NCBI GenBank assembly: GCA_963777885.1
Contig: CAVZSJ010000005.1
Location: 118,713 to 182,712 of the forward strand
From: an uncultured Actinomycetota bacterium
GTDB lineage: Bacteria; Actinomycetota; Actinomycetes; Mycobacteriales; Mycobacteriaceae
DNA: 64,000 nt
Reading direction: 5' to 3'
Each line of letters opens with the position of its first letter. Position 1 is the stretch's first letter. Made by a program: the position numbers and the translations under genes. Of the stretch, positions 45,508-57,476 are shown piece by piece. Below the pieces are notes generated by a model, which saw only the letters and a list, made by a program, of their open reading frames with translations, did not search any database and was not told the origin of the DNA.

Positions 45508-47415
45508 GTGCCCGAGACGCCTTATCTGACCATCCATCTCGGTCGGGTGCGCGAGAACTACCACGCCTTGCACGCCGCACTGCCCGATGCGCGGATCCGC
45601 TACGCGGTCAAGGCGAATCCGGCCGAACCCATCCTGCGTCTGCTGGCGGCCGAGGGCGCGGCCTTCGACGTCGCCTCGATAGGTGAGATCGACGCATGCA
45701 CCGCCGCCGCGATCGACGGCCACCTTCTGACCTTCGGCAACACGCTCAAGAAGCCGGCGGACATCGCTCGAGCGTTCTCGATCGGGGTGCGTCGGTTCAC
45801 CTTTGACACGCACGACGGTGCGACAACCATCGCCGAGCATGCCCCCGGGTCAAGCGTGGAATGCCGTATCGCACCGGCGTTTCCGTCGTCGGTAACCCCG
45901 TTCGGCCACAAGTTCGGTTGCGCTCCGACCGAGGCCGTCGACCTGCTTGACTATGCCCGGTCGCTGGGCCTTCGGCCGGAAGGGGTGTGCTTCCATGTCG
46001 GCTCCCAACAGCTCGACCCCGCCGCATGGGAGATCGGAATACATTGTGCTGAAACGGTCTTCGCCGCCCTGAGCGATCTCACCACCCTCAACGTCGGCGG
46101 CGGCTTCCCCATCGCATACGCGACCGGCGCGCCGGAGCTCGGCCTGGTGACCGACTCCATCATGACCGCGCTGGACCGCCATTTCGGTTCGAGCCCGCCA
46201 CAACTCGTGGTGGAACCCGGACGGGCGATCGTCGGCTCGGCAGGCGCTATCCACTGCGAGGTGGTGTCGGCGCGCGCCGGTACCGATGGGCGGCGCTGGG
46301 TGTACCTCGACATCGGTCGCTACGGCGGCCTCGCCGAAACCGAGAACGAGTACATCCGCTACCGGTTGCGGACCGACCGCGACGACGACCCCGTCGACGA
46401 TGCCGTGATCGCGGGCCCGACCTGCGACGGCGACGACGTGCTCTACCAAAGCTATCCGCTTCCTGGCACGCTGCGGGCAGGAGACCGGGTCGAGATCGCG
46501 GACGCCGGCGCCTACACCGCAAGCTATGCTTCCGTATCGTTCAATGGATTTGCGCCCTTGCCAACGTATTTCGCGGGCAGCATCGCGCGGGACATCGTCG
46601 AGCCGCTGGCTCCCGGACTCACCCGCACCTGGCGGCTGTCGGAAGTCATCTGCGATGTGCGCACCGAATTCCAGCATGTGGTGATCGGCCGCACCGAACA
46701 GGGGGCCGCGTTGTTCTGCGACGGAGAGCGGCAGAGCACCGAGTTCAGCCAGCTCGTTTACCACGAGGCGCTGCTGGTGCCGGCGTTGTTGCTGGCAGGC
46801 AAGATCGAGCGCGTGCTCGTCATCGGGTCCGGCGAGGGGGTGGTCAGCCAGATGGCGGTCGCCGCCGGCGCCACGCATGTCGACCACGTCGACATCGACC
46901 GCGAGGCGGTGAGACTGTGCGCGCAGCATCTGCCGTACGGTTACGCGATAGACGAATTGCTCAGCGCGGAAAAAGGACTCGGCCCGATCACGGTGCACTA
47001 CCGCGACGGCTGGAGCTTCGTAGCCGAATCGAGCACGTCGTACGACGTCGTCGTCGTCGATCTGCCCGACGAGCGAACCGAACCCGTGCAGCACAATCGG
47101 TTGTACGAGGCCGGCTTCCTCAGAGCCTGCCGAGACACCGGTCGAGTGGTGGCCTTTCAGGCTGGGTGCCCGACCCTGTGGCGCAACGACTCGCTGCGGT
47201 ACTCGTGGCGTCGGTTTCACGAAACCTTTGACACGGTCGTGTATTTCGGCAGCGACGAACACGAATGGGCGTTTCTGTCGGGACTGGGCCACGCTGTGCC
47301 GGACCCCGTGGCGGCCATGTCCGCCCGCTTGCCGACCCTGCCCTACCAGCCTCGGACCATCGACACCGACTCGCTGATCGCGTCCACCATTGCGCCGAAA
47401 ACGCTCAGATCTTGA
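45508..47415 (+). CDS. Fusion of fold-type III PLP ornithine/lysine decarboxylase and spermidine-synthase-like aminopropyltransferase
   Basis: N: YAVKAN(K), FDVAS, HVGSQ, NVGGGF, EPGR, GPTCDG, GAYT..FNGF. C (from about 46590): EFQHV, DGERQST, YHE, VLVIGSGEG, VDID, DG, VVVDLPD. One uninterrupted 635-aa frame. Confidence 0.9.
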   Translation: MPETPYLTIHLGRVRENYHALHAALPDARIRYAVKANPAEPILRLLAAEGAAFDVASIGEIDACTAAAIDGHLLTFGNTLKKPADIARAFSIGVRRFTFDTHDGATTIAEHAPGSSVECRIAPAFPSSVTPFGHKFGCAPTEAVDLLDYARSLGLRPEGVCFHVGSQQLDPAAWEIGIHCAETVFAALSDLTTLNVGGGFPIAYATGAPELGLVTDSIMTALDRHFGSSPPQLVVEPGRAIVGSAGAIHCEVVSARAGTDGRRWVYLDIGRYGGLAETENEYIRYRLRTDRDDDPVDDAVIAGPTCDGDDVLYQSYPLPGTLRAGDRVEIADAGAYTASYASVSFNGFAPLPTYFAGSIARDIVEPLAPGLTRTWRLSEVICDVRTEFQHVVIGRTEQGAALFCDGERQSTEFSQLVYHEALLVPALLLAGKIERVLVIGSGEGVVSQMAVAAGATHVDHVDIDREAVRLCAQHLPYGYAIDELLSAEKGLGPITVHYRDGWSFVAESSTSYDVVVVDLPDERTEPVQHNRLYEAGFLRACRDTGRVVAFQAGCPTLWRNDSLRYSWRRFHETFDTVVYFGSDEHEWAFLSGLGHAVPDPVAAMSARLPTLPYQPRTIDTDSLIASTIAPKTLRS

Positions 47416-49363
47416 TCGACGGCAGCAGCCTGGTCAGGTTCCAGAGTCGGTTGCGCCGCGCGGATAGCGATGAGATCGCCAGTGCGACAGCCAATATGCC
47501 CAATAGTGTGATGATCGCCTGCCACAGCCGGTAGTCGATGCCGCCCAGAATCAACTGCCGAAGTCCGTTGACCCCGTATGACATCGGGTCAAAGCGATGC
47601 AAGATTTGGAACGGTTTCGAGGTGGTTTCTACGGGGTACATGCCGCCGGCGCTAACCAGCTGCAGCATGAGTAGAGCCATGATCAGCACCCGACCCACCG
47701 CTGGGCCGACGACGGCGTTGATCGCCTGGGTCGCGGCGACGAAGGCCAAGGAAACCAACACCATGAACGCCAGCATCGCGAACGGATGGACGGCGTGCAT
47801 CCCGAGCGCGAACCGCACGACACAGTAGAGGATGATCGCCTGGAACATCGCGATCGACGCCGCGGGCAGGTAGCTGGCGAGTACTACCCGGATCGACATC
47901 ACCTCAGCGGCGATCGCGCGGTTTTGCAAGGGACGCAACACCATCCACAGCACCAGCGCGCCGAAGAACAGAGCCAGCGTGAGGAAGAACGGCGCCATGC
48001 CGGTGCCGAAGTTGGGCGCGCCGTTTTTGTGGGTGGCCTGCAGATCAACCGGACCGCCGATGGTGTTGGCGATCGCGTCCTTCTGCTGGCTGGTCCAGTT
48101 GGGCACCTGGTTGGCGCCCTCGGCGAGTTTGCCGGCCAGTTCTGCCGCACCCGCCCGCAGTTGCCCGGTTCCCGAGTGCAGCTGTTGTGCGCCGTCGTCG
48201 AGTTTGGCTATGCCGGTTGCCAGTTCAGCGTTACCGGTGGCGAGCTGCTGAGCCCCGTTGCGCAGCTGATTCAGCTTGTTGGTGAGGTCAGAGCCTCGGC
48301 CGCCGACTCGGTCCAAGGCGGCTGTCAAGGGGCTCCCGGATGCGCGCAGCGACTGGGTCATCGAGATCGCGGCGCTTTCCGCGTCGGTCAGCTGCTGGCG
48401 GATCTGCGGCGTGAACTGGTGGCCCCGCAGCTGGTCCTGTATACCCCGCAGCGCCCCCGCGGCATTGCCGGCTGCTGGATCTGGGCTACCGGAGAGCTGA
48501 TCAATGACCGACGAGAGCGAGTTAGCGGCGGCGTCCTGCGCCGTGGCGATGGTGCCGATCTGGTCGGTGGCCTGCTGCAGGGCGGTGGTGCCCTGTTGCA
48601 ATCGCGCTGTGTCGCCGCCGATTTGGGCCAGCGCCTTGCTCACCGCCAGCAGTGGGTCGGTGGCTTCGTTGATCCCGTCGGACAGCTGCTTGGCGCCGGT
48701 GGCAAGCTGTGCCGAACCGGACCGTGCGGTATCGAGACCGGCCGCGAGCTGGCCGGCGCCGTCATCGACCTGGGCCGCCCCGTCGGCGAGCTGTTTTGCC
48801 CCGTCGGCGGCCTGCTTGATTCCGGTGCCGGACGTGACGACCACGGATAGCACGTGGTTGACCGCCTGCCCGGAGATGCGGGAGGACACGGCGTTGAGCA
48901 CCTGGTCGGTGGCAGTGCGGCCAATGCTGGACGAGATGTAGTTGTTGGCGTCGTTGTAGACCGCGATCAGATTGGCTTTCCGCGGTTGCCCGGTCAGGGG
49001 CGATGCGATCGCTTCACTGAAGTCCGGCGGCAACTCGAGCATGAAGTAGTACTGGCCGTGGTCGACTCCGCTGCGCGCCTGGTCGAGGTTCACGACATGC
49101 CAGTCCATGCCGCCGTCGGCGGTCAGGCTCTTGGCGATTTCTGACCCGACGTTCAGCTGCTGCCCGGAGACGACGGCGCCACGGTCGGCATTGACCAGCG
49201 CCACGGGCATCTTGTTCACGTGGCCGAAGGGATCCCAGTACGCCCACAGGTAGAGCGCTCCGTAGACCAGGGGGAGCAGCATCAGCACCACAATGGCTGC
49301 CCGCGTCATCCGGCTGCGGCCGAAACGTTTGATCTCCGAACCGAATGCCAGTCCAGCCAGCAT
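47405..49363 (-). CDS. YhgE/Pip family membrane protein
   Basis: PLVYGALYLWAYWDPFG..PVALVNAD, GAxQLAxG heptad repeats, NFGTGMAPFF, LQLVSAGGMYPVE, PMSYGV. Confidence 0.9.
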   Translation of the reverse strand: MLAGLAFGSEIKRFGRSRMTRAAIVVLMLLPLVYGALYLWAYWDPFGHVNKMPVALVNADRGAVVSGQQLNVGSEIAKSLTADGGMDWHVVNLDQARSGVDHGQYYFMLELPPDFSEAIASPLTGQPRKANLIAVYNDANNYISSSIGRTATDQVLNAVSSRISGQAVNHVLSVVVTSGTGIKQAADGAKQLADGAAQVDDGAGQLAAGLDTARSGSAQLATGAKQLSDGINEATDPLLAVSKALAQIGGDTARLQQGTTALQQATDQIGTIATAQDAAANSLSSVIDQLSGSPDPAAGNAAGALRGIQDQLRGHQFTPQIRQQLTDAESAAISMTQSLRASGSPLTAALDRVGGRGSDLTNKLNQLRNGAQQLATGNAELATGIAKLDDGAQQLHSGTGQLRAGAAELAGKLAEGANQVPNWTSQQKDAIANTIGGPVDLQATHKNGAPNFGTGMAPFFLTLALFFGALVLWMVLRPLQNRAIAAEVMSIRVVLASYLPAASIAMFQAIILYCVVRFALGMHAVHPFAMLAFMVLVSLAFVAATQAINAVVGPAVGRVLIMALLMLQLVSAGGMYPVETTSKPFQILHRFDPMSYGVNGLRQLILGGIDYRLWQAIITLLGILAVALAISSLSARRNRLWNLTRLLPSIKI

Positions 49364-49365
49364 CG

Positions 49366-50034
49366 TTAGCCCCCTTCGGTCAGGATGCGGTGATCGTGTA
49401 GGTCGTGATCGGGGGCGTTGGTTCCGAGCGGATTGGTGACCCCGACGACGACGGTGCGCTGCTCCGCGATCGCACCGAGCCGTTCGACTGCGACCGCCCG
49501 ACGGTCGTTGTCGCGAACTTGCTCGAGATCGCCGACCACCAGGATCGGTCGGTCCGAAAACAGCGCGAGCGTGATGCGCAGCAGGAACAGTTCCAGATCG
49601 GAAAGCTCGACGATGTAAGCCTTTGGCGCAGGCGGGGGAATGTCACCGAAGACTTGTGCCAGCTGGGCCGCACCGGGTTCGTCCGGCACCCGCGAATACC
49701 AGGGCGCCAACCATTGGCGTTGCTCGGCCAGCACAGTCTGAACGGTGACCATCTCCTCGAGCTCATCGATGTCGGCGAACGCCGCGATCGAGCAGTGCCG
49801 GCGGATGGCACGTGGTTCGGTGTCGCCCAGTACGGTCACCGTTCCGCGGGTGGGTTTGAGTCGGCCCGCCAGCGTTAAGAGCAACGTGTGCTGTTCCGGG
49901 CCGCCGGGCATCCGAATGGCGTGAAACCCAGCCGCGAGCTCGAGGTCGATGCCCGAGAACAGCGGTCCGTGTTCGCCGTCCAGACCTAACCCGGCCGCGG
50001 TGATCACGACCGGTATGTCCTGTGGGTCGTCCAT
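49366..50034 (-). CDS. Degenerate ABC ATPase-like protein
   Basis: ABC layout (GPLFSGIDL, LAGRLKPTRGTVTVLG) but Walker A = PGGPEQHT, signature = LSDLE, Walker B = ILVVGD. Confidence 0.75.
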   Translation of the reverse strand: MDDPQDIPVVITAAGLGLDGEHGPLFSGIDLELAAGFHAIRMPGGPEQHTLLLTLAGRLKPTRGTVTVLGDTEPRAIRRHCSIAAFADIDELEEMVTVQTVLAEQRQWLAPWYSRVPDEPGAAQLAQVFGDIPPPAPKAYIVELSDLELFLLRITLALFSDRPILVVGDLEQVRDNDRRAVAVERLGAIAEQRTVVVGVTNPLGTNAPDHDLHDHRILTEGG

Positions 50035-50041
50035 CTCGCCG

Positions 50042-50509
50042 CTACAGAATCGCGACCGCCACGACGATGCCCAGTGCGAACTGCGCCGCCGCGACCATCA
50101 GCGACTCGTAATTGAACTCGTCACTCTGGAACAGCGCGTCCATGTCGATGCCGATGACCAACGTGGCGAATCGCATCATCACCACCTGCGCGATAATTCC
50201 GACGAGCCCGAAAATCGCTGAGCCGACGAGCCCTTCGACCAGCTTTCCCGACGACGCGTAGATCGCCAGCACCACGATGAACGCCATGCTGACCATGCCC
50301 GCGGCGGCAACGACGATCGCGTTCGGCTTTCCGGCGTCGACCATCCTGCGCAACGGCCCCGGCGTGGTGAGGTCGATGGCGTAGAACCCGATCATCATCA
50401 GCACCAACCCGACGATGGCGTACAGGACGATGGCACCGACCCCGCGGGCGAGCACGTTCCAGTATCCCGCATCCCAATAGCCTGACAGGGCAACGCTGGT
50501 TGTTGTCAT
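50042..50509 (-). CDS. DUF350 (YjfL-like) membrane protein
   Basis: About 4 TM; IDLTTPGPL..G.PNA.VVAAA and AAAQFALGIVVAVAI; position beside GspS-like gene as in yjfL-yjfC. Confidence 0.75.
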   Translation of the reverse strand: MTTTSVALSGYWDAGYWNVLARGVGAIVLYAIVGLVLMMIGFYAIDLTTPGPLRRMVDAGKPNAIVVAAAGMVSMAFIVVLAIYASSGKLVEGLVGSAIFGLVGIIAQVVMMRFATLVIGIDMDALFQSDEFNYESLMVAAAQFALGIVVAVAIL

Positions 50510-50540: not shown

Positions 50541-51719
50541 TCACGAGGATCCTTCTTTCAAAGGGATCCGGTGCGGGACAAAAGCTGCGCCGTCATCGGT
50601 CACCAGTCCGCCGGTCTCGCGGATACCAAGACCCGCCGACGAATCCCCGACGACCCATGCGCCCAGCGCGGGCCGCATGTCGTCGAATTGTGGCAACGGG
50701 TCCAACAATTGGTAGACGAAACCTTCCTCGCCGTAGACGCCGCCCGTCGCGGTGTCCATGCCGGCGCCGACGATGGTGATGTTGGCGCCCTCACGGCCGA
50801 GCTTGGGCTTGCGGACGTATTCGGTGAGCTCGTGCGGATCGTCGAGGTAGGCGGGCAGCAGGTTCGGGTGGCCGGGATACATCTCCCAGAGCACGGCCAG
50901 AATTGCCTTGTTGGACAACAACGTCTTCCACAGCGGTTCGATCCACATCGTCTGCGGCAGGCCCGACACCACATTTTTGCCGAACTCGTCTTCGAGCATC
51001 CATTCCCACGGGTGCAGCTTGAAGATGGTGTCGATCTGCGCCTCTTCCAGGTCGACGAACCGCTTCAGGGCGCTATCCCAACCGATGTCCTCGATCATCA
51101 AGCCGACGGTGTTGAAGCCCGCCTCCGCCGCGGTCTCCTGCAGGTAGGTCGTGGTGATCTGGTCCTCGCCAGTGGCTTCCACGCCGGACCAGCTGAAGTG
51201 TAATTCGTTGCTGGGCAGCAGATCACGAACCACCTTCCAACGGTCGACCAGTTGCTCGTGCAGCGAGTTCCACTGGTCGTCGTTGGGGAACTTGTCTTTG
51301 AGCCAGTACCACTGCAGGATCGCCGCCTCGAGCAGCGTCGTGGGTGTGTCCGCGTTGTACTCCAGCAGCACCGCCGGCCGGCGCCCGTCATAGCGCAAGT
51401 CGAATCGTCCGTACACGTGCGGATCGGAACGACGCCATGATTCGGCGATCGGTTGCCAACTCCATTCCGGCAGACCGAAATCTGCGTACCGCTCCATCAG
51501 TACCACCTGCTCGACGGCGTTCAGGCACATCGAATGCAGCAGCTCGACGTCGGCTTCCAGCGCCAGGATCTCGTCCATGTCGAACTCGTAGTACACCGAC
51601 TCGTCCCAGTACGGCCGGGCCGCGCCCCGCGCGTCACGCGCAGGTGTCCCGTACACCATGCCTTGGGATTCGACGATCGACCGCCAATTCGGTCGAGGCT
51701 GCGTCCTGAGCCGCTTCAC
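50541..51719 (-). CDS. Glutathionylspermidine synthase-like ATP-grasp ligase (YgiC/YjfC type, no amidase domain)
   Basis: YWDES.YY, YGRFDL, LLEYNADTPTTLLEA, QWNSLHE, FKLHPWEW, EPLWK..LSNKAIL, KP.LGREGANI, GLGIRE..T...F.PH. Confidence 0.93.
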   Translation of the reverse strand: MKRLRTQPRPNWRSIVESQGMVYGTPARDARGAARPYWDESVYYEFDMDEILALEADVELLHSMCLNAVEQVVLMERYADFGLPEWSWQPIAESWRRSDPHVYGRFDLRYDGRRPAVLLEYNADTPTTLLEAAILQWYWLKDKFPNDDQWNSLHEQLVDRWKVVRDLLPSNELHFSWSGVEATGEDQITTTYLQETAAEAGFNTVGLMIEDIGWDSALKRFVDLEEAQIDTIFKLHPWEWMLEDEFGKNVVSGLPQTMWIEPLWKTLLSNKAILAVLWEMYPGHPNLLPAYLDDPHELTEYVRKPKLGREGANITIVGAGMDTATGGVYGEEGFVYQLLDPLPQFDDMRPALGAWVVGDSSAGLGIRETGGLVTDDGAAFVPHRIPLKEGSS

Positions 51720-52417
51720 GAGCCCCCGCCCTTGCCGCCACTGAGCTTGCCGCCCAGCCCGCCGCGCTGAATGGTCGTGCCCGACCTCGTTTTAACGGTC
51801 GAGCCGCTGGGAGCCGATATCGAACCACCGATCGGTCGTTGACCGATTGATCCCGAGCTGCCGTAGTAGTACCGGTACTGATGTCCGCCGTAGAAGAAGA
51901 AGCCGTTGAGGCCCGCGGTGTGATTGGTGCAGTAGTCGTCCGGGACGATCACCGGTTGACCGTTGGTGTCGTCCCGGACGCATTGGGCAGTGACGGTGGG
52001 TCCTGAAAACGCCCAATACCCTAGGCCCGCAACCACGCCCACCACTCCGATGCCGACCCCGGCGCCGATCAGTCTGCGATTTCGCTTGTGCCGCTTGGCT
52101 TCCGCTTCGAGTCGCGCCTCTTCGTCCTCGCGCTGCTTTTTGGCGAACTTCTCCCGCGCGCGTAACTCGGCGGGTGTCGGCGCGCGTGGACGTGTCGTTT
52201 CCGCATCCTGAAACTCAACGCTGCCGCCCGACGGGTACGGCTTGGATTGCGTCGGTTCTTCCTGCTCCGACCAGGCCACTGGCGATTCGGGTTCGGCTTG
52301 ATGTTGGTCCGAATGGCGCCCGACCGATTCGGTCTTGTCTGCGTCGGTCTTGTCTGCGTCGGACTTGTCGCCTTGGGGCTCGCCGCTTTCCGGTGGTTTG
52401 TCTTCATCCGAACCCAT
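51716..52417 (-). CDS. YgiB/DUF1190-like single-pass membrane protein with Gly-rich C-terminus
   Basis: Acidic disordered N-terminus, KRHKRNRR + TM, C-x16-C (..PDDYC), Tyr/Gly-rich segment, ends TIQRGGLGGKLSGGKGGGS; GTGA overlap with the ligase gene; GGAGG RBS. Confidence 0.7.
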   Translation of the reverse strand: MGSDEDKPPESGEPQGDKSDADKTDADKTESVGRHSDQHQAEPESPVAWSEQEEPTQSKPYPSGGSVEFQDAETTRPRAPTPAELRAREKFAKKQREDEEARLEAEAKRHKRNRRLIGAGVGIGVVGVVAGLGYWAFSGPTVTAQCVRDDTNGQPVIVPDDYCTNHTAGLNGFFFYGGHQYRYYYGSSGSIGQRPIGGSISAPSGSTVKTRSGTTIQRGGLGGKLSGGKGGGS

Positions 52418-52535: not shown

Positions 52536-53354
52536 CTAGACGGGCCACCAGCGTTCCAATACCCGCGCGACGCCGTCCTCGGTGTTCGAGCTGGTGACTT
52601 CGTTGGCGGCGGCCACCGCCTCGGGATGGGCGTTACCCATCGCGACGCCGTGACCTGCGCGCAGCAGCATCGGCACGTCGTTGGGCATGTCGCCGAAGGC
52701 CACCACCTCGCCGTCGCCGATCCCCAGCGGCCGGGCGATCTCCTCGACACCGGTCGCCTTGCTGATTCCCAGCGGCAGGATCTCCACCAGCCCGTTGTTG
52801 GTGGAGTAGGTGATGTCGCCCTCGAGCCCGACATGCTTGGCCAGCTCAGCGGCCATATCCGCGCTGCGCGCGCCGGCTTTGCGGATCAGCAACTTGATGG
52901 CCGGCGCGCTGAGCAGGTCTTCGATCGACACCTCGGTGTTGTCCGGGTTGAGCCACGCGTGCTCGTAGCCGGGCGAGCTGACGAATTGCGGGGTGGCCGC
53001 GTCATGGGCGCTGTTGCCGATCCGCTCGACGGCCAGGCCCGCGCCTGGGATCGCGCGACTCGCGATCTCGGCCAACTCGCCCAGCAGATCGACGGACAGC
53101 GTGCGCGCCGCCAGCACCCGATCGGTCGCAGGATCATAGATCACCGCACCATTGGCGCAGGCCGCCATCGGCGCGAAGCCGAGCGCCTCGACGACGGGGT
53201 GTACCCAGCGCGGTGGCCGCCCGGTCGCCAGGATGAAGTGCGCACCTGCGGCGACGGCAGCGCGCACGGCTTCGCGGGTGCGCGGGGTGATGGTCTCGTC
53301 GTCGTCGAACAACGTGCCGTCGACATCGCAGGCGATGAGGGCCGGCGCCGTCAT
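52536..53354 (-). CDS. Cof-type HAD hydrolase (Rv3813c ortholog)
   Basis: ACDVDGT, ATGRP, KATG, FGDMPND. Confidence 0.93.
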   Translation of the reverse strand: MTAPALIACDVDGTLFDDDETITPRTREAVRAAVAAGAHFILATGRPPRWVHPVVEALGFAPMAACANGAVIYDPATDRVLAARTLSVDLLGELAEIASRAIPGAGLAVERIGNSAHDAATPQFVSSPGYEHAWLNPDNTEVSIEDLLSAPAIKLLIRKAGARSADMAAELAKHVGLEGDITYSTNNGLVEILPLGISKATGVEEIARPLGIGDGEVVAFGDMPNDVPMLLRAGHGVAMGNAHPEAVAAANEVTSSNTEDGVARVLERWWPV

Positions 53355-53403
53355 GTGGTGGTCATATTTTTTTGGATGTCATTCTGCAGATGTCACCCGA
53401 TCG

Positions 53404-54189
53404 TCAGTGCGTTCCACTTTGGTCTTGCCCCGGCCGCGTCACGCCATCGTGTCCATACTTTCGTGCCCGCTCCTGCAGTTCGGCCAGACGGATCGCCCTC
53501 GAGTCGTCCTGGTTCGGCGCGCTGCCACCCAGCCGCCGGGGCACCCAGAACTCCCCCTCGGGATGCGGGTATTCCTGCTGCACTTTGTACAGCAACCCAG
53601 TCATCGCGTTGCGCAGCGCGACGTTGAGCTGCTCGGGCGTGCCCTGCGGCGCGAGCGGACGCCCGATCGCCACGGTGACCGGAACCTTGTTGCGGAACAC
53701 CTTTTTCGGATGGTCTTTGGGCCAGATCCGGTGTGCCCCCCAGACGATCGTCGGGATGATCGGCACCCGCGCGGCCAGCGCCATCCGCGCCGCGCCGGTC
53801 TTGAACTCCCTGAGTTCGAAACTGCGGCTGATGGTGGCCTCGGGGTGTACCCCGATGAGTTCTCCCTCGCGCAGACGCTGCACGGCCACGTCGAAAGCAT
53901 CCTGTCCCCTGGTGCGGTCGACGGGAATCAGCCGGGCGTGCTTGATCACGTAGTTGGCCGCTTTCACGTCCGCCATTTCGGCCTTGATCATGAAATACAT
54001 GCGCCGGCCCCGCTCCCGCACGGCGAATAACGGTGGCAGCCAGTCCAGGTAGCTGGTGTGGTTCTGCGCGAGAATGGCAGGACCCCGCGCGGGAATGTAC
54101 TCCAGCCCCTGGAACGTGAACGTGGTTCCGTTCATCGCGACCATCGGCGGAACGATCCACTCCCCCAGACGGTAAAACGGCTCTGCCAT
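53404..54189 (-). CDS. PlsC-like acyltransferase (Rv3814c ortholog)
   Basis: NHTSYLD, HPEATISR, KTGAAR. Confidence 0.92.
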   Translation of the reverse strand: MAEPFYRLGEWIVPPMVAMNGTTFTFQGLEYIPARGPAILAQNHTSYLDWLPPLFAVRERGRRMYFMIKAEMADVKAANYVIKHARLIPVDRTRGQDAFDVAVQRLREGELIGVHPEATISRSFELREFKTGAARMALAARVPIIPTIVWGAHRIWPKDHPKKVFRNKVPVTVAIGRPLAPQGTPEQLNVALRNAMTGLLYKVQQEYPHPEGEFWVPRRLGGSAPNQDDSRAIRLAELQERARKYGHDGVTRPGQDQSGTH

Positions 54190-54207
54190 GTGCTGTTCCT
54201 CCTCTCG

Positions 54208-54963
54208 CTACCGCGACCCGTGCGCGGTCCGGCCGGTGGCCTTGGCCGCGGCGTCGTCGGCGTCCATTTGAGCCGCCTCGGCCAACGTCGGCGCGCTGCC
54301 GCCCAGACGGCGGGGCACCCAGTACGCCCCGGCGGGATGGTCGTACCGCTGCTGCGCCCGGGACAGCAGCGCGGACATCGACCGGCGCAGCGCGGCGTTG
54401 GTGGCCGCCATATCGTCGGCCGCGCGCAACGGCTCCCCCACCAGGACAGTGACCGGTACCTTGTGGCGACCGAGCTTTCTGGGATGGTCCTTGGTCCACA
54501 CCCGCTGTGTGCCCCACACGATCACGGGGATGATCGGCACGCCGGCTTCCTGCGCCATTCGGGCGGCCCCGGTCTTGAACTCCTTGAGCTCGAAGCTGCG
54601 GCTGATCGTGGCCTCTGGATAGACCCCGACCAGTTCACCCTCGTGTAGCCGCTGCACGGCCACCGCGTAGGCGTCGGCTCCCGCGCCGCGGTCCACGGGG
54701 ATGGTTCCGGTGCGCTTGATAAGGAAGTTGACGCTCTTCACCTGCTGCATCTCGGCCTTGATCATGAATCGCATCCGGCGGCCGCGGTGATGCATGGCCA
54801 GCGCGGCCGGTAGCCAGTCGACATAGCTCGTGTGGTTAATGGCCATCACGGCGCCCCCGCGGTCGGGAACGTTCCCCTCGCCGAGGTAGGTGATCCGGCT
54901 CCCGGTCGCCACGACGATCAGCTGGGTCAGGATCTCGAGCGCGCGGAATGTCGGTTCGGCCAT
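54208..54963 (-). CDS. PlsC-like acyltransferase (Rv3815c ortholog)
   Basis: NHTSYVD, YPEATISR. Confidence 0.92.
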   Translation of the reverse strand: MAEPTFRALEILTQLIVVATGSRITYLGEGNVPDRGGAVMAINHTSYVDWLPAALAMHHRGRRMRFMIKAEMQQVKSVNFLIKRTGTIPVDRGAGADAYAVAVQRLHEGELVGVYPEATISRSFELKEFKTGAARMAQEAGVPIIPVIVWGTQRVWTKDHPRKLGRHKVPVTVLVGEPLRAADDMAATNAALRRSMSALLSRAQQRYDHPAGAYWVPRRLGGSAPTLAEAAQMDADDAAAKATGRTAHGSR

Positions 54964-54966
54964 CGA

Positions 54967-55749
54967 TCACTGCTCCGTCCCGCCGCCATCCTCCAGCTGG
55001 GCGCGGCGGGCCGCCTTCTCGGCTGCCTCGTCGGCGTCCAGGCGGGTCGCCTCGGCCAACGAGGGCGCACCCCCGCCCAGCCGGTGCGGCACCCAGAACT
55101 CCCCTGCCGGATGCGGCCCGTAGTGCTCTTGCGCCTGATCCAGCAGATGTTGCATCCGTGAGTGCAGCAGGCCGTTCAAGTCCTCGATCGCCAGCGTCGG
55201 TTCGATCGGTTCGCCGACGAGGACCGTGATCGGCACCTTCGGGCGGAACAGCTTCTTGGGCTGCCCTTTCGTCCAGACTCGCTGCGCGCCCCAGACAATG
55301 TGCGGGATGATCGGCACTCCGGCCTCGACCGCCATTCGGGCGGCTCCCGATTTGAACTCCTTGATCTCAAAGCTGCGGCTGATCGTCGCTTCGGGATAGA
55401 CGCCGACCAATTCGCCGTCCTTCAAGTTCCGGACCGCGGCCTCATAGGACGCGGCCCCGCTTTGCCGGTCTACCGGGATATGCCGCAGGCTGCGCATGAT
55501 CGGGCCGGTGAACTTGTGGTCGAACACCTCCTGCTTGGCCATGTACCGCACTTTGCGGCCGCGTCCCTGTTGGTAGGTGGGCAAACCCGCCAGCATGAAG
55601 TCGAGGTAGCCGGTGTGGTTGATCGCGATGACGGCACCGCCGCTGGTCGGGATGTTCTCCACCCCCGAGAGAGTGATCTTCAGCCCCTGGACGCGAAAGA
55701 TCAGGCGAACGATCTGAATCACAGTCCCGTATACCGGTTCCACAGCCAT
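54967..55749 (-). CDS. PlsC-like acyltransferase (Rv3816c ortholog)
   Basis: NHTGYLD, YPEATISR. Confidence 0.92.
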   Translation of the reverse strand: MAVEPVYGTVIQIVRLIFRVQGLKITLSGVENIPTSGGAVIAINHTGYLDFMLAGLPTYQQGRGRKVRYMAKQEVFDHKFTGPIMRSLRHIPVDRQSGAASYEAAVRNLKDGELVGVYPEATISRSFEIKEFKSGAARMAVEAGVPIIPHIVWGAQRVWTKGQPKKLFRPKVPITVLVGEPIEPTLAIEDLNGLLHSRMQHLLDQAQEHYGPHPAGEFWVPHRLGGGAPSLAEATRLDADEAAEKAARRAQLEDGGGTEQ

Positions 55750-55925
55750 TTAGCCTAGTGGTCCCGACTGTGAGCCGCCTGAAGTGCCAAAAAGACCTGC
55801 TTATTGTCCTGCCGGTCGGCCCAGCGCTCGGGCGGTGCGGCCGTGGCAGGCCTGCGACCGTAACTCGGATCTGGATGCTCCACGCTAAGCTCGAAGCGAT
55901 CGCGAAAGATGTCAGAAAGGTATTT

Positions 55926-57476
55926 GTGCAGGTCACGAGCGTCGGCCACGCCGGCTTCCTGATTGAAACGCATGCGGGCAGCATCCTTTGCGACCCCTGG
56001 GTCAACCCGGCCTATTTTGCGTCCTGGTTCCCGTTCCCGGACAACAGCACATTGGACTGGGACGCTTTGGGCGCCTGCGACTACCTATACGTTTCGCATC
56101 TGCACAAGGACCACTTCGATGCCAAGCACCTGCGTAGGCACGTCAATAAAGACGCGGCGGTGCTGTTGCCGGACTTCCCGGTGCCCGATTTGCGAAATGC
56201 GCTGCAGGAATTGGGGTTTCATCGGTTTTTCGAGACCTCCGACTCGGTCAAACATAGGCTGAGTGGGTCTAAAGGCGACCTAGACGTCATGGTCATCGCG
56301 CTGCGGGCACCCGCGGACGGACCGATCGGTGATTCGGCGCTGGTGGTATCAGATGGCGCCACAACGGTTTTCAACATGAACGACGCCCGGCCGGTCGAGT
56401 TGGACGAGCTGGCCGCCGACTTCGGCCACATCGACGTACATCTGCTGCAGTACTCCGGGGCGATCTGGTACCCGATGGTTTACGACATGCCGGAGCGCGC
56501 CAAGGAAGCGTTCGCCGTTCAAAAGCGCCAGCGGCAAATGGACCGCGCACGCCAGTACATCGCGCAGGTGGGGGCGACCTGGGTAGTGCCTTCGGCGGGG
56601 CCGCCGTGCTTTCTGGATGCCGAGCTGCGCCACCTCAACGACGACCACGCGGACCCGGCCAACATCTTTCCCGACCAGATGGTGTTCCTGGATCAGATGG
56701 GCAGCAACGGGCACGATCGCGGCTTGCTGATGATTCCGGGGTCAGTCGCGGACTTCACTGGTAAGTCACTGAATTCGCTGAATCATCCGCTGCCCACCGA
56801 TGAGGTCGAGGCCATCTTCACCACCGGCAAGGCGGCGTACATCAGTGATTACGCCGACCGGATGGCTCCGGTCCTTGCGGCGGAGCGGGCGAGCTGGGCA
56901 CCGGCCATCGGCGAGCCGTTGCTGGAGCCTTTGCGCGCGCTGTTCGAGCCGATCATGCTGCAAAGCGACGAAATCTGCGACGGCATCGGGTACCCGGTCG
57001 AACTGGTGATGGGGCCGGAGACCATCATTCTGGACTTTCCCAAACGCGCCGTCCGCGAACGGATTCCGGAAGAAAAAGTCCGCTATGGATTCGAGATAGC
57101 GCCGGAACTGGTGCGCACCGTGCTGCGCGACCAGGAACCGGACTGGGTCAACACCATTTTCTTGTCCACCCGGTTTCGGGCGTGGCGAGTCGGCGGCTAC
57201 AACGAGTACCTGTACACGTTCTTCAAATGTTTGACCGACGAACGGATCGCGTACGCCGACGGCTGGTTCGCCGAGACCCACGATGATTCGGCATCGATCA
57301 CCCTGGACGGCTGGGAGATTCAACGGCGCTGCCCCCATCTCAAAGCTGACTTGTCGAAATTCGGCGTGGTAGAAGGCGATACGCTGACCTGCAACCTGCA
57401 CGGGTGGCAGTGGCGTCTGGACAACGGGCGCTGTTTGACGACGCGGGGGCATCCGTTGCGGAGTTCCCGCGCATGA
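55926..57476 (+). CDS. MBL-fold + C-terminal Rieske protein (Rv3818 ortholog)
   Basis: VTSVGHAG, CDPW, SHLHKDH, CPH..CNLHGW; start GTG 55926. Confidence 0.9.
   Translation: MQVTSVGHAGFLIETHAGSILCDPWVNPAYFASWFPFPDNSTLDWDALGACDYLYVSHLHKDHFDAKHLRRHVNKDAAVLLPDFPVPDLRNALQELGFHRFFETSDSVKHRLSGSKGDLDVMVIALRAPADGPIGDSALVVSDGATTVFNMNDARPVELDELAADFGHIDVHLLQYSGAIWYPMVYDMPERAKEAFAVQKRQRQMDRARQYIAQVGATWVVPSAGPPCFLDAELRHLNDDHADPANIFPDQMVFLDQMGSNGHDRGLLMIPGSVADFTGKSLNSLNHPLPTDEVEAIFTTGKAAYISDYADRMAPVLAAERASWAPAIGEPLLEPLRALFEPIMLQSDEICDGIGYPVELVMGPETIILDFPKRAVRERIPEEKVRYGFEIAPELVRTVLRDQEPDWVNTIFLSTRFRAWRVGGYNEYLYTFFKCLTDERIAYADGWFAETHDDSASITLDGWEIQRRCPHLKADLSKFGVVEGDTLTCNLHGWQWRLDNGRCLTTRGHPLRSSRA

What the first reader, a model, noticed from the sequence alone, without database searches (positions are those of the whole stretch)
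50541..52417. GspS-like ligase in a mycothiol organism, translationally coupled to a protein ending in GGKGGGS: possible protein polyaminylation
Seen: a full ATP-grasp synthetase with no CHAP amidase, overlapping (GTGA) the stop of a membrane protein whose tail is RGGLGGKLSGGKGGGS. Known: GspS activates the C-terminal Gly carboxylate of glutathione and joins it to spermidine; mycobacteria use mycothiol/ergothioneine; E. coli YgiC/YjfC were reported as ATPases without glutathionylspermidine synthetase activity. Inference: the acceptor may be the Gly-rich C-terminus of the partner protein. Caveat: the positive-inside rule predicts that tail is extracytoplasmic, so modification would have to precede export or topology differs.
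Basis: inference. Interest (0 to 1): 0.75.

Follow-up and report, generated by a model that had tools for sequence, protein, structure and literature searches.

The report
Polyamine ligase with glycine-tailed partner
This Mycobacterium locus is the actinobacterial version of the E. coli ygiB-ygiC / yjfL-yjfM-yjfC gene set, and its exported partner protein carries a floppy tail with a nearly fixed Gly-Ser/Gly-Gly end that is a testable candidate for the ligase's unknown natural substrate.

Summary
A 233-aa membrane-anchored protein ending in RGGLGGKLSGGKGGGS (51716-52417, minus strand) overlaps by GTGA a 392-aa stand-alone GSP_synth ATP-grasp ligase with no CHAP domain (50541-51719). A DUF350 gene follows.

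This is not a mycobacterial oddity. The ligase is a YgiC/YjfC-type enzyme, a family shown in 2023 to have peptide-spermidine ligase activity. The trio has the gene order of E. coli yjfL-yjfM-yjfC and ygiB-ygiC.

The partner-ligase pair recurs in many actinobacterial genera, one acidobacterium and four proteobacterial phages. In 201 Mycobacteriaceae genomes the two genes co-occur strictly.

New here: in 118 non-redundant partners, position -2 is Gly in 115. The last residue is Ser (90), Gly (23), Thr (4) or Glu (1). Ser uses both codon families. The rule holds where the genes are far apart, so it is selection on the protein, not a hidden ribosome site. The tail is predicted disordered.

Tail polyaminylation therefore gains support (about 40%) but stays unproven. 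In every lineage the tail ends up outside the cytoplasm, so modification would have to precede or accompany export.

Verdict: new member of a known but unexplained module; moderate interest.

The parts
51716..52417 (-). Partner gene: 233-aa type-II membrane protein, a DUF1190-like 'GGFG-tail' protein (counterpart of E. coli YgiB/YjfM)
   Evidence: ORF and translation. 466 homologues. No Pfam hit for this protein, but 9 of 40 relatives give sub-threshold DUF1190 hits, best E 0.0014. It shares the [ST][VI]xRGG[FYL]G motif and a Gly-ended tail with YgiB and YjfM.
52073..52234 (-). Conserved cytoplasmic juxtamembrane segment of the partner (residues 62-115: SGGSxxFQDxxTTRPRxPTPAELRAREKF..., then a long helix)
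   Evidence: Invariant columns in alignment A1. AF2 helix 82-118 with pLDDT about 90. Present in the TM-anchored relatives and absent from the lipoprotein-type relatives.
52016..52072 (-). Single transmembrane anchor (residues 116-134, LIGAGVGIGVVGVVAGLGY), N-terminus inside
   Evidence: Hydropathy and flanking charges: 7 K/R before, 1 after.
51773..51997 (-). Small extracytoplasmic beta-rich domain (residues 141-215) with the invariant Cys pair C146/C163 and the YRYYYG motif
   Evidence: AF2 pLDDT about 90-95 and strands 141-210. C146 and C163 are invariant in A2. No PDB fold match at E<=0.001.
51752..51766 (-). RGGLG motif (residues 218-222), the most widely conserved sequence feature of the partner family
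   Evidence: R218, G219, G220 and G222 are invariant or nearly so. The same motif occurs in E. coli YgiB/YjfM and in the phage partners.
51719..51751 (-). Disordered Gly/Ser/Lys tail (residues 223-233, GKLSGGKGGGS) ending Gly-Ser; candidate carboxylate substrate of the ligase
   Evidence: pLDDT <50 for residues 220-233. Terminal rule in 118 tails: position -2 Gly 115/118; position -1 Ser 90, Gly 23, Thr 4, Glu 1. 110/118 end G-[GS] against 41.5 +/- 4.9 after shuffling each last-8 window.
51716..51719 (-). GTGA overlap: ligase start GTG overlaps the partner's stop TGA (translational coupling)
   Evidence: Sequence. Of 118 loci, 96 have the partner stop within -4 to +3 nt of the ligase start.
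50541..51719 (-). YgiC/YjfC-type stand-alone ATP-grasp carboxylate-amine ligase (392 aa)
   Evidence: PF03738 E 2.9e-148, full length. PDB YgiC 7uk8 E 1.5e-89 and YjfC 7uk6 E 4e-79. The equivalents of GspS R316, D318, E330, N332, E391 and R598 are invariant, while the DSASC loop is DTPTT.
50042..50509 (-). DUF350 (YjfL-type) membrane protein, 155 aa, 31 nt downstream of the ligase
   Evidence: PF03994 E 3.3e-16. Only copy in the genome. Found downstream of the ligase in Mycobacteriales, Pseudonocardiales and most Streptosporangiales loci (62 of the 80 loci), but not next to the Streptomyces ligases.
49366..50034 (-). Degenerate ABC-ATPase-like protein, 7 nt downstream; lineage-specific passenger of the operon
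   Evidence: Only weak NCBIfam ABC hits, E about 0.002-0.01. Not found beside the ligase in other genomes.
47405..49363 (-). YhgE/Pip family membrane protein, 2 nt downstream; lineage-specific
   Evidence: TIGR03061/TIGR03062. Absent from the other loci.
45508..47415 (+). Fusion of a PLP-dependent Orn/DAP-type decarboxylase with a SpeE-like aminopropyltransferase, convergent with the operon; possible local amine supply
   Evidence: PF02784, PF00278 and PF01564. Linked to the trio only in a same-genus genome, L050. No AdoMetDC (PF02675) in the genome.

Best explanation
Identity (about 90% sure). This is the actinobacterial form of the conserved envelope module known from E. coli as ygiB-ygiC and yjfL-yjfM-yjfC. 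It has three parts: a cytoplasmic YgiC-type ATP-grasp ligase, an exported membrane-anchored partner with an RGG(F/L)G motif and a disordered Gly/Ser tail, and a DUF350 membrane protein.

Chemistry (inferred from the family). The ligase uses ATP to form an acyl-phosphate on a peptide C-terminal carboxylate. It then amidates that carboxylate with a polyamine. Here the amine could be putrescine or cadaverine, or a product of the nearby decarboxylase/SpeE-like fusion.

Substrate (favoured but unproven, about 40%). The carboxylate is the partner's own C-terminus, ...Gly-Ser-COOH here and ...Gly-Gly-COOH in E. coli, Streptomyces and phages. Because the ligase needs ATP and the tail ends up outside the cell, the modification would have to occur on the newly made partner. 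The time window is just after coupled translation and before, or while, its C-terminus (the last part to leave the cytoplasm) is translocated. The result would be an envelope protein tipped with a cationic, amine-bearing group.

The confidence given (0.4) is for the whole statement, including the substrate step.
For: Shown:
- Full-length PF03738 match without CHAP, and closest solved relatives YgiC/YjfC.
- Catalytic residues kept, but the glutathione-loop DSASC replaced by DTPTT, as in YgiC/YjfC.
- Same gene order as in E. coli, with tight coupling there too: 5-nt and 2-nt gaps.
- Family activity is peptide-spermidine ligase with unknown natural substrate.
- Strict phyletic coupling in 201 Mycobacteriaceae genomes. 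The ligase is in 53 and the partner in 48. All 48 lie inside the ligase set and next to the ligase. Among the other 5, the three loci inspected, covering all three genera concerned, carry a divergent partner.
- A partner was found next to the ligase in all but one (L131) of about 124 loci examined, spanning many actinobacterial genera and one Bryobacteraceae genome.
- The pair also occurs in Ralstonia phage RSL1, Achromobacter phage Motura, Aeromonas phage 60AhydR15PP and Acinetobacter phage KARL-1. All four phage partners are lipoproteins ending ...GGFG...GG.
- Terminal rule: Gly at position -2 in 115/118; Ser, Gly, Thr or Glu at -1. Ser is encoded by AGC (32) and TCN (58). The rule holds in 8/8 loci with gaps >=21 nt and in a stand-alone paralogue. 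110/118 obey it against 41.5 expected after shuffling.
- YgiB relatives end SMGG in 116/120.
- The tail is disordered in the AF2 model, and D/E occur in the last 8 residues of only 4 of 118 partners.

Inferred: the tail is the substrate, and modification happens before or during export.
Against: - In every lineage the partner is exported, either through a lipobox signal peptide or through an N-in TM anchor with a conserved Cys pair. The ligase has no signal sequence. Enzyme and mature tail are therefore in different compartments.
- The spacing between RGGFG and the C-terminus varies from 7 to 30 residues.
- No ligase residue covaries with a Ser or a Gly terminus once phylogeny is considered. 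Streptosporangiales with either ending share the same TDDTSSFVPH motif.
- No modification of YgiB or YjfM has been reported in the papers I could read. The key paper (Pederick 2023) was not readable here, so I do not know which peptides were accepted.
- One ligase locus (L131) has no recognisable partner within 3 kb.
Confidence: 0.4

Rival explanations
1. The ligase joins a polyamine to a small cytoplasmic peptide or metabolite. The conjugate is exported, perhaps by DUF350, and acts on or is bound by the exported partner. The partner is a beneficiary or receptor, not the substrate.
For: It resolves the compartment problem without special timing. YgiC/YjfC act on short peptides in vitro, as cited. 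The module is repeatedly linked to membrane proteins and polyamine genes (Ravi et al.; hss-gss clusters). An SMR-type transporter gene lies two genes upstream of the partner gene in phage KARL-1.
Against: It does not explain why the most conserved part of the partner is a disordered tail with a fixed Gly-(Ser/Gly) end, while the folded domain diverges beyond HMM recognition between phyla. DUF350 is absent beside the Streptomyces ligases and some phage ligases, whereas the partner is almost always present.
Confidence: 0.3
2. The ligase amidates a carboxylate of an envelope precursor, for example a peptidoglycan stem-peptide intermediate. The partner and DUF350 act later in the same envelope pathway.
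For: The module has envelope-stress associations in E. coli: ygiB is Cpx-induced, there are tolC-linked phenotypes, and YgiB accumulates in a tsp mutant. Stem peptides carry free C-terminal carboxylates, and polyamine-linked peptidoglycan exists in some bacteria (my own knowledge, not checked here).
Against: No peptidoglycan-synthesis genes are conserved next to the module. No polyamine-modified peptidoglycan is known in E. coli or mycobacteria (own knowledge). The conserved tail end remains unexplained.
Confidence: 0.1
3. The partner is a regulator or membrane scaffold of the ligase rather than a substrate. For example, its conserved cytoplasmic N-terminal segment could dock the ligase at the membrane. 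The tail's conserved end would then serve an unrelated extracytoplasmic role, such as recognition by a C-terminal protease or binding to a wall polymer.
For: There is a conserved cytoplasmic motif and helix in the TM-anchored forms. YgiB rises 3-4 fold in an E. coli tsp (tail-specific protease) mutant.
Against: Lipoprotein-type partners in E. coli, Streptomyces and phages have no cytoplasmic part at all, yet keep the pairing and the tail.
Confidence: 0.1
4. It is a true thiol-polyamine synthetase that makes a glutathionylspermidine-like conjugate with glutathione, mycothiol or ergothioneine.
For: The Pfam family name, and the distant relationship to GspS and trypanothione synthetase.
Against: The NCBIfam GspS equivalog scores 120 bits against a cut-off of 882. 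The DSASC loop of GspS is replaced by DTPTT. YgiC/YjfC lack GspS activity (Sui 2012, as cited). Actinomycetes use mycothiol, not glutathione (PMC4360819), and mycothiol has no free carboxylate (own knowledge).
Confidence: 0.03

Closest known systems
E. coli yjfL-yjfM-yjfC (within yjfIJKLMC) and tolC-ygiB-ygiC
   Same: The three protein types are the same: DUF350 membrane protein, exported protein with ...RGG(F/Y)G and a Gly-ended tail, and a CHAP-less GSP_synth ligase 40-43% identical to the window's. The partner lies immediately upstream of the ligase and is tightly coupled.
   Different: The partner is anchored by an N-in TM helix with a roughly 115-residue cytoplasmic extension instead of a lipobox. 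It ends Gly-Ser rather than Gly-Gly. It is not recognised by the Pfam DUF1190 model. DUF350 follows rather than precedes the pair. There are no PspA/YjfI/YjfK or TolC neighbours; instead there is a degenerate ABC ATPase, a YhgE/Pip protein and a decarboxylase-SpeE fusion.
Bifunctional glutathionylspermidine synthetase/amidase (E. coli Gss) and trypanothione synthetase
   Same: ATP-grasp synthetase fold and the catalytic Arg/Asp/Glu/Asn set. The chemistry is a C-terminal (Gly) carboxylate joined to a polyamine amine.
   Different: No CHAP amidase domain. The glutathione-binding loop is not conserved. The score is far below the equivalog cut-off. The organism lacks glutathione.
Phage-borne partner-ligase pairs (Ralstonia phage RSL1 ORF051-gsp; Achromobacter phage Motura gp274-gss-...-gp271; Aeromonas and Acinetobacter T4-like phages)
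   Same: A small exported protein ending ...RGGFG...GG lies directly upstream of, or two genes before, a YgiC-type ligase 36-46% identical to the window's. Motura also has a DUF350-like protein and a homospermidine synthase.
   Different: Lipoprotein anchors, proteobacterial hosts, and a phage genomic context.
ATP-grasp enzymes that modify protein C-termini (RimK on ribosomal protein S6; tubulin tyrosine ligase)
   Same: They are precedents for an ATP-grasp enzyme activating the alpha-carboxylate of a specific protein's flexible C-terminal tail (own knowledge). This resemblance concerns how the system may work, not family membership.
   Different: Those enzymes add amino acids, not polyamines. 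Their substrates are cytoplasmic. They belong to different ATP-grasp subfamilies.
Ubiquitin-like / Pup C-terminal tagging (..RGG, ..GGQ/GGE)
   Same: A disordered Gly-Gly-type C-terminus whose carboxylate is activated with ATP and joined to an amine. One relative (Bryobacteraceae, L141) even ends ..GGGGE.
   Different: There is no beta-grasp fold, E1 or PafA-type enzyme. Here the tailed protein would receive a small amine rather than be attached to another protein. This is analogy only.

Membership tests
YgiC/YjfC-type stand-alone peptide-polyamine ligase (Pfam GSP_synth, PF03738) | Full-length match to PF03738 above the gathering score | tested here: met
   494.5 bits against a cut-off of 29.3; residues 12-385 on profile 1-371/371.
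YgiC/YjfC-type stand-alone peptide-polyamine ligase (Pfam GSP_synth, PF03738) | No N-terminal CHAP amidase domain; length about 390 aa | tested here: met
   392 aa with only one Pfam domain; aligns from residue 1 with YgiC residue 9.
YgiC/YjfC-type stand-alone peptide-polyamine ligase (Pfam GSP_synth, PF03738) | ATP/Mg and polyamine-site residues kept (GspS R316, D318, E330, N332, E391, R598; the roles are recalled from the GspS structure papers) | tested here: met
   All are invariant columns in alignment A5 of GspS, the window ligase, YgiC, YjfC and two actinobacterial ligases.
YgiC/YjfC-type stand-alone peptide-polyamine ligase (Pfam GSP_synth, PF03738) | Glutathione-binding loop (NADSASC in GspS) replaced as in YgiC/YjfC (NADTPTS) | tested here: met
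   The window has NADTPTT.
YgiC/YjfC-type stand-alone peptide-polyamine ligase (Pfam GSP_synth, PF03738) | ATP-dependent ligation of spermidine to peptide C-termini | not testable with these tools
   Known for the E. coli enzymes only through citations of Pederick 2023; that paper is not held.
DUF1190 (PF06693; YgiB/YjfM) | Match to the Pfam model above the gathering score (22 bits) | tested here: not met
   No hit for the window protein even at E<=10. 9 of 40 relatives give sub-threshold hits, best E 0.0014. hhalign against YgiB/YjfM gives probability <8%.
DUF1190 (PF06693; YgiB/YjfM) | Exported protein with N-terminal membrane attachment and conserved Cys pair(s) | tested here: met
   A TM anchor (N-in) replaces the lipobox, and C146/C163 are invariant. 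Lipobox forms exist among close relatives.
DUF1190 (PF06693; YgiB/YjfM) | C-terminal [ST][VI]xRGG[FYL]G motif followed by a short tail ending in Gly-Gly or Gly-Ser | tested here: met
   TTIQRGGLG...GGGS here, against TVTRGGFG...SMGG in YgiB and TVSRGGYG...HWGG in YjfM.
DUF1190 (PF06693; YgiB/YjfM) | Gene immediately upstream of a YgiC-type ligase | tested here: met
   GTGA overlap here; 5-nt and 2-nt gaps in E. coli.
DUF350 (PF03994; YjfL) | Match above the gathering score; small multi-pass membrane protein next to the ligase | tested here: met
   60 bits against a cut-off of 26; residues 20-154 on profile 2-133/133; 31 nt downstream of the ligase.
Bifunctional glutathionylspermidine synthetase/amidase (NCBIfam NF007801) | Equivalog score and presence of the amidase domain | tested here: not met
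   120 bits against a cut-off of 882; only the synthetase part aligns.

The most novel reading that the evidence does not exclude
YgiC-type ligases may be protein C-terminal polyaminylases. In this reading they activate the terminal Gly/Ser carboxylate of their dedicated, co-translated partner and cap it with a polyamine before or during export. That would create an envelope protein with a cationic, primary-amine tip. The tip could bind anionic wall polymers, or even act as an amine acceptor for cross-linking to peptidoglycan. This would be a new kind of bacterial post-translational modification, shared by Actinobacteria, Proteobacteria and their phages. It would also name the long-sought substrate of E. 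coli YgiC and YjfC.
Probability: 0.35. Interest if true: 0.85.

Novelty: new member of a known kind. Interest (0 to 1): 0.55.

Why it matters
The natural substrate of the YgiC/YjfC ligases has been open since these genes were tied to tolC-dependent envelope defects in E. coli. A 2025 review still calls it unknown. The module is widespread: more than 595 matching stretches in species-representative genomes and 139 phage records. In E. coli it is linked to envelope stress.

The comparative result here points to one cheap, decisive experiment. The only part of the partner conserved from E. coli to Mycobacterium to phages is a disordered tail with a fixed Gly-(Ser/Gly) end. That experiment is mass spectrometry of the partner's C-terminus with and without the ligase.

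It also explains why a modification could have escaped routine proteomics. The C-terminal tryptic peptides are only four residues long: GGGS here and SMGG in YgiB.

For mycobacteria specifically, it would add a polyamine-dependent envelope modification in a group where polyamine biology is poorly understood.

Tried and rejected
1. The Gly-rich tail as a by-product of an embedded Shine-Dalgarno site or start/stop overlap. Rejected. The terminal Ser uses both AGC (32) and TCN (58) codons. The rule holds in 22 loci with gaps of 4 nt or more, including 8/8 with gaps >=21 nt, and in a stand-alone paralogue with no ligase downstream.
2. Formal homology of the partner to Pfam DUF1190. Inconclusive. 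The HMM gives only sub-threshold hits, and hhalign against a low-diversity YgiB/YjfM profile gives probability <8%.
3. Fold search with the AF2 model of the partner. No PDB match at E<=0.001.
4. Covariation between the ligase sequence and a Ser or a Gly terminus. The high mutual-information columns are phylogenetic. Within Streptosporangiales both endings go with identical ligase motifs. Uninformative.
5. Natural partner-ligase fusions (P0327, P0355, P0297, P0332). These are frameshift-ridden assembly artefacts, not fusions.
6. Tat export as a way round the compartment problem. The n-regions have RR or KR, but not followed by the hydrophobic pair of the Tat consensus (sequences). One weak Pfam hit to a Tat-signal family (E 0.048) is not support.
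7. The decarboxylase-SpeE fusion, the degenerate ABC ATPase and YhgE/Pip as core parts of the system. They are not conserved beside the trio outside the genus.
8. Reading Pederick 2023, Sui 2012 and Dhamdhere & Zgurskaya 2010 directly. None is held.
Full report
**1. What is there**

On the minus strand, five co-directional genes are tightly spaced.
- 51716-52417 encodes a 233-aa protein.
- 50541-51719 encodes a 392-aa protein whose GTG start overlaps the upstream TGA stop (GTGA).
- 50042-50509 lies after a 31-nt gap.
- 49366-50034 lies after a 7-nt gap.
- 47405-49363 lies after a 2-nt gap.

The 392-aa protein matches Pfam GSP_synth over the whole model (E 2.9e-148) and has no other domain. The third gene is DUF350. 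The fourth is a degenerate ABC-ATPase-like protein. The fifth is a YhgE/Pip protein. A convergent gene at 45508-47415 fuses an Orn/DAP-type PLP decarboxylase to a SpeE-like domain.

**2. Organism**

The ligase is 98% identical to one in an uncultured actinobacterial MAG and 91% identical to that of Mycobacterium ostraviense. Named partner homologues come from M. heidelbergense, M. saskatchewanense, M. lacus, M. simiae and M. riyadhense.

**3. The ligase**

- Its closest solved relatives are E. coli YgiC (7uk8, E 1.5e-89, aligned from residue 1) and YjfC (7uk6, E 4e-79). Trypanothione synthetase and GspS are far more distant.
- An alignment with the GspS synthetase domain keeps the equivalents of R316, D318, E330, N332, E391 and R598. 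I recall their roles from the GspS structure papers.
- The GspS loop NADSASC is NADTPTT here, like NADTPTS in YgiC/YjfC.
- The NCBIfam GspS equivalog scores 120 bits against a cut-off of 882.
- YgiC and YjfC lack GspS activity (Sui 2012) but have peptide-spermidine ligase activity (Pederick 2023). As of 2025 the physiological substrate was still called unknown. I could not read the primary paper.

**4. The partner**

- It has an acidic N-terminal region.
- It has a conserved juxtamembrane segment, modelled as a long helix (residues 82-118).
- It has one TM segment (116-134), with 7 K/R on the N side and 1 on the C side.
- It has a small beta-rich domain (141-215, pLDDT about 90-95) with an invariant Cys pair.
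- It has the motif RGGLG, followed by an 11-residue tail with pLDDT <50.
- No PDB fold match was found.

Pfam DUF1190 does not hit this protein. However, 9 of 40 relatives give sub-threshold DUF1190 hits, and DUF1190 is the only recurrent family. E. coli YgiB (...TVTRGGFGES...SRSMGG) and YjfM (...TVSRGGYGRSSSARGHWGG) share the motif and the Gly-ended tail. In E. coli the order is yjfL (DUF350) - yjfM (DUF1190) - yjfC, and ygiB - ygiC, with 2-nt and 5-nt gaps.

The window therefore holds the same three-part module. Ravi et al. 2024 already describe operons that combine this ATP-grasp ligase with DUF350 and a DUF1190 lipoprotein.

**5. How firmly the pair is coupled**

- In 201 genomes of the GTDB family, the ligase is in 53 (15 of 34 genera; 4 of 12 in the same genus).
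- A profile of the partner finds it in 48 of the same 201. All 48 are ligase-positive, with the two genes adjacent.
- Among the other 5 ligase-positive genomes, the three loci inspected, covering all three genera concerned, have a more divergent tailed partner next to the ligase.
- Across the phylum sample the ligase is in 14 of 301 genomes.
- Of about 124 loci examined, only one (L131) shows no partner within 3 kb. These loci cover Mycobacterium, Mycolicibacterium, Nocardia, Tsukamurella, Pseudonocardia, Amycolatopsis, Saccharothrix, Streptosporangium, Nonomuraea, Actinomadura, Streptomyces and others, plus one Bryobacteraceae MAG.
- The core is partner + ligase, usually with DUF350. The ABC-like gene, YhgE and the decarboxylase-SpeE fusion are not conserved neighbours outside the genus.
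- 139 phage records encode relatives of the ligase. In all four phages inspected, a small lipoprotein ending ...RGGFG...GG sits just upstream. These are Ralstonia RSL1, Achromobacter Motura, Aeromonas 60AhydR15PP and Acinetobacter KARL-1.

**6. The tail rule (the new result)**

Among 118 non-redundant partners next to ligases:
- Position -2 is Gly in 115.
- Position -1 is Ser in 90, Gly in 23, Thr in 4 and Glu in 1.
- Positions -3 to -8 are mixed G/S/K.
- GS or GG makes up only 20% of the interior tail dipeptides.
- Shuffling each protein's last eight residues gives 41.5 +/- 4.9 proteins that obey the rule, with a maximum of 57 in 2000 shuffles. The observed number is 110. These figures are not corrected for relatedness, but the rule spans more than 20 genera with tails that cannot be aligned to each other.

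The rule is not a nucleotide-level constraint.
- The terminal Ser is encoded by AGC (32) and by TCN (58).
- The rule holds in all 22 loci where the partner stop is 4 nt or more from the ligase start, including 8 with gaps >=21 nt.
- It also holds in a stand-alone paralogue with no ligase downstream.

Three further observations fit.
- In a library of 50%-identity representatives, 91 complete members all show [QS]RGG[FL]G plus a G/S-rich tail of 7-30 residues ending GS, GG or SS.
- YgiB relatives end SMGG in 116 of 120.
- Acidic residues are almost absent: D/E occur in the last 8 residues of 4 of 118 proteins.

**7. Interpretation**

The family's chemistry acts on the C-terminal carboxylates of peptides. 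The partner's most conserved feature, across phyla and phages, is a disordered tail with a fixed small-residue end. The two genes are inseparable. Together this makes the partner's own C-terminus the best single candidate for the natural substrate. ATP-grasp enzymes that modify protein C-termini exist (RimK, tubulin tyrosine ligase; own knowledge).

The main obstacle is the compartment. Every partner is exported, by lipobox or by an N-in anchor with a Cys pair. The ligase needs ATP and has no signal sequence. Modification would have to happen on the nascent or pre-export protein.

That timing is conceivable. The C-terminus is the last part to leave the cytoplasm, only about 95 residues follow the TM helix, and translation of the two genes is coupled. 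It is inference only. I found no support for Tat export.

I put the tail-substrate model at about 40%. A small-molecule or peptide substrate with an exported product gets about 30%. Other readings share the rest.

**8. The amine**

The genome has no prokaryotic-type AdoMet decarboxylase (PF02675). The SpeE-like domain therefore has no obvious source of aminopropyl donor. Putrescine or cadaverine from the fused decarboxylase, or an imported polyamine, are as likely as spermidine.

Links of this ligase family to polyamine-synthesis genes are documented elsewhere: hss-gss clusters and AdoMetDC or polyamine-oxidase operons.

**9. Earlier notes of this scan**

Notes from other windows describe the same module in many other phyla, and several raise the same tail idea. 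I treat them as leads only. The tail statistics above were computed independently on my own loci. One note led me to the PNAS 2023 paper and to phage Motura.

**10. Verdict**

- The locus is a new, actinobacterial member of a known but functionally unexplained module.
- Its value lies in sharpening a testable hypothesis about that module, not in being a new system.

Noticed in passing
window 45508-47415 (+): A single 635-aa ORF fuses an Orn/DAP-type PLP decarboxylase to a SpeE-like aminopropyltransferase. The genome has no PF02675 AdoMet decarboxylase, so the transferase's aminopropyl donor is unclear. The fusion is also present near the trio in one same-genus genome (L050), but not in other genera.
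   Followed up: partly
window 49366-50034 (-) and 47405-49363 (-): A degenerate ABC-ATPase-like protein (only weak ABC hits) lies 2 nt upstream of a YhgE/Pip membrane protein and is co-directional with the trio. Neither gene was found beside the ligase in any other genome inspected.
   Followed up: partly
window 52073-52234 (-), partner residues 62-115: TM-anchored partners carry a conserved cytoplasmic motif (G-S-x-R-F-Q-D-x-x-T-x-x-P-R-x-P-T-x-A-E-x-R-A-R) followed by a long helix. It is absent from the lipoprotein-type partners. It may be a docking site for a cytoplasmic protein such as the ligase.
   Followed up: no
L151 3627-4181 (genome G187, contig C5): A stand-alone partner paralogue (184 aa, ending ...IQRGGLGGRGGSGS) lies next to a 548-aa membrane protein and far from the genome's only ligase gene. 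A second partner-like match lies about 6 kb away and contains an in-frame TGA.
   Followed up: partly
L141 2215-3000 (Bryobacteraceae MAG, Acidobacteriota): This is the only non-actinobacterial chromosomal locus among the 80 returned. Its partner ends ...RGGFGATAEGGGGGE, a Gly-Gly-Glu end reminiscent of Pup.
   Followed up: no
L154 2595-2999; L156 3114-3497 and 4884-5396; L155 1845-2453; L157 1137-1478 and 1582-2118: Jumbo and T4-like phages of Ralstonia, Achromobacter, Aeromonas and Acinetobacter carry the tailed-lipoprotein + ligase pair. Motura adds a homospermidine synthase and a DUF350-like protein. KARL-1 has an SMR (QacE-like) transporter gene two genes upstream of the partner.
   Followed up: partly
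proteins P0327, P0355, P0297, P0332 (representative library): These apparent partner-ligase fusion proteins are chimeras full of frameshifted Arg/Ala-rich stretches. They are assembly or gene-calling artefacts, not real fusions.
   Followed up: yes
homologues of the partner (e.g. P0032, P0059): Some homologues carry a precomputed Pfam label, PF28211.1. This does not reappear when the same proteins are scanned against the Pfam copy available here. A newer Pfam release may already hold a family for this protein; its name could not be looked up.
   Followed up: no
window 52536-55749 (-) and 55758-57476 (+): The module sits next to a Cof-type HAD hydrolase, three tandem 1-acylglycerol-3-phosphate-acyltransferase-like paralogues and a 572-aa gene ending in a Rieske-like Cys/His motif. 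The same flank occurs in the same-genus genome L050. Only 4 of 12 same-genus genomes have the module, so it may be an insertion at this site.
   Followed up: no
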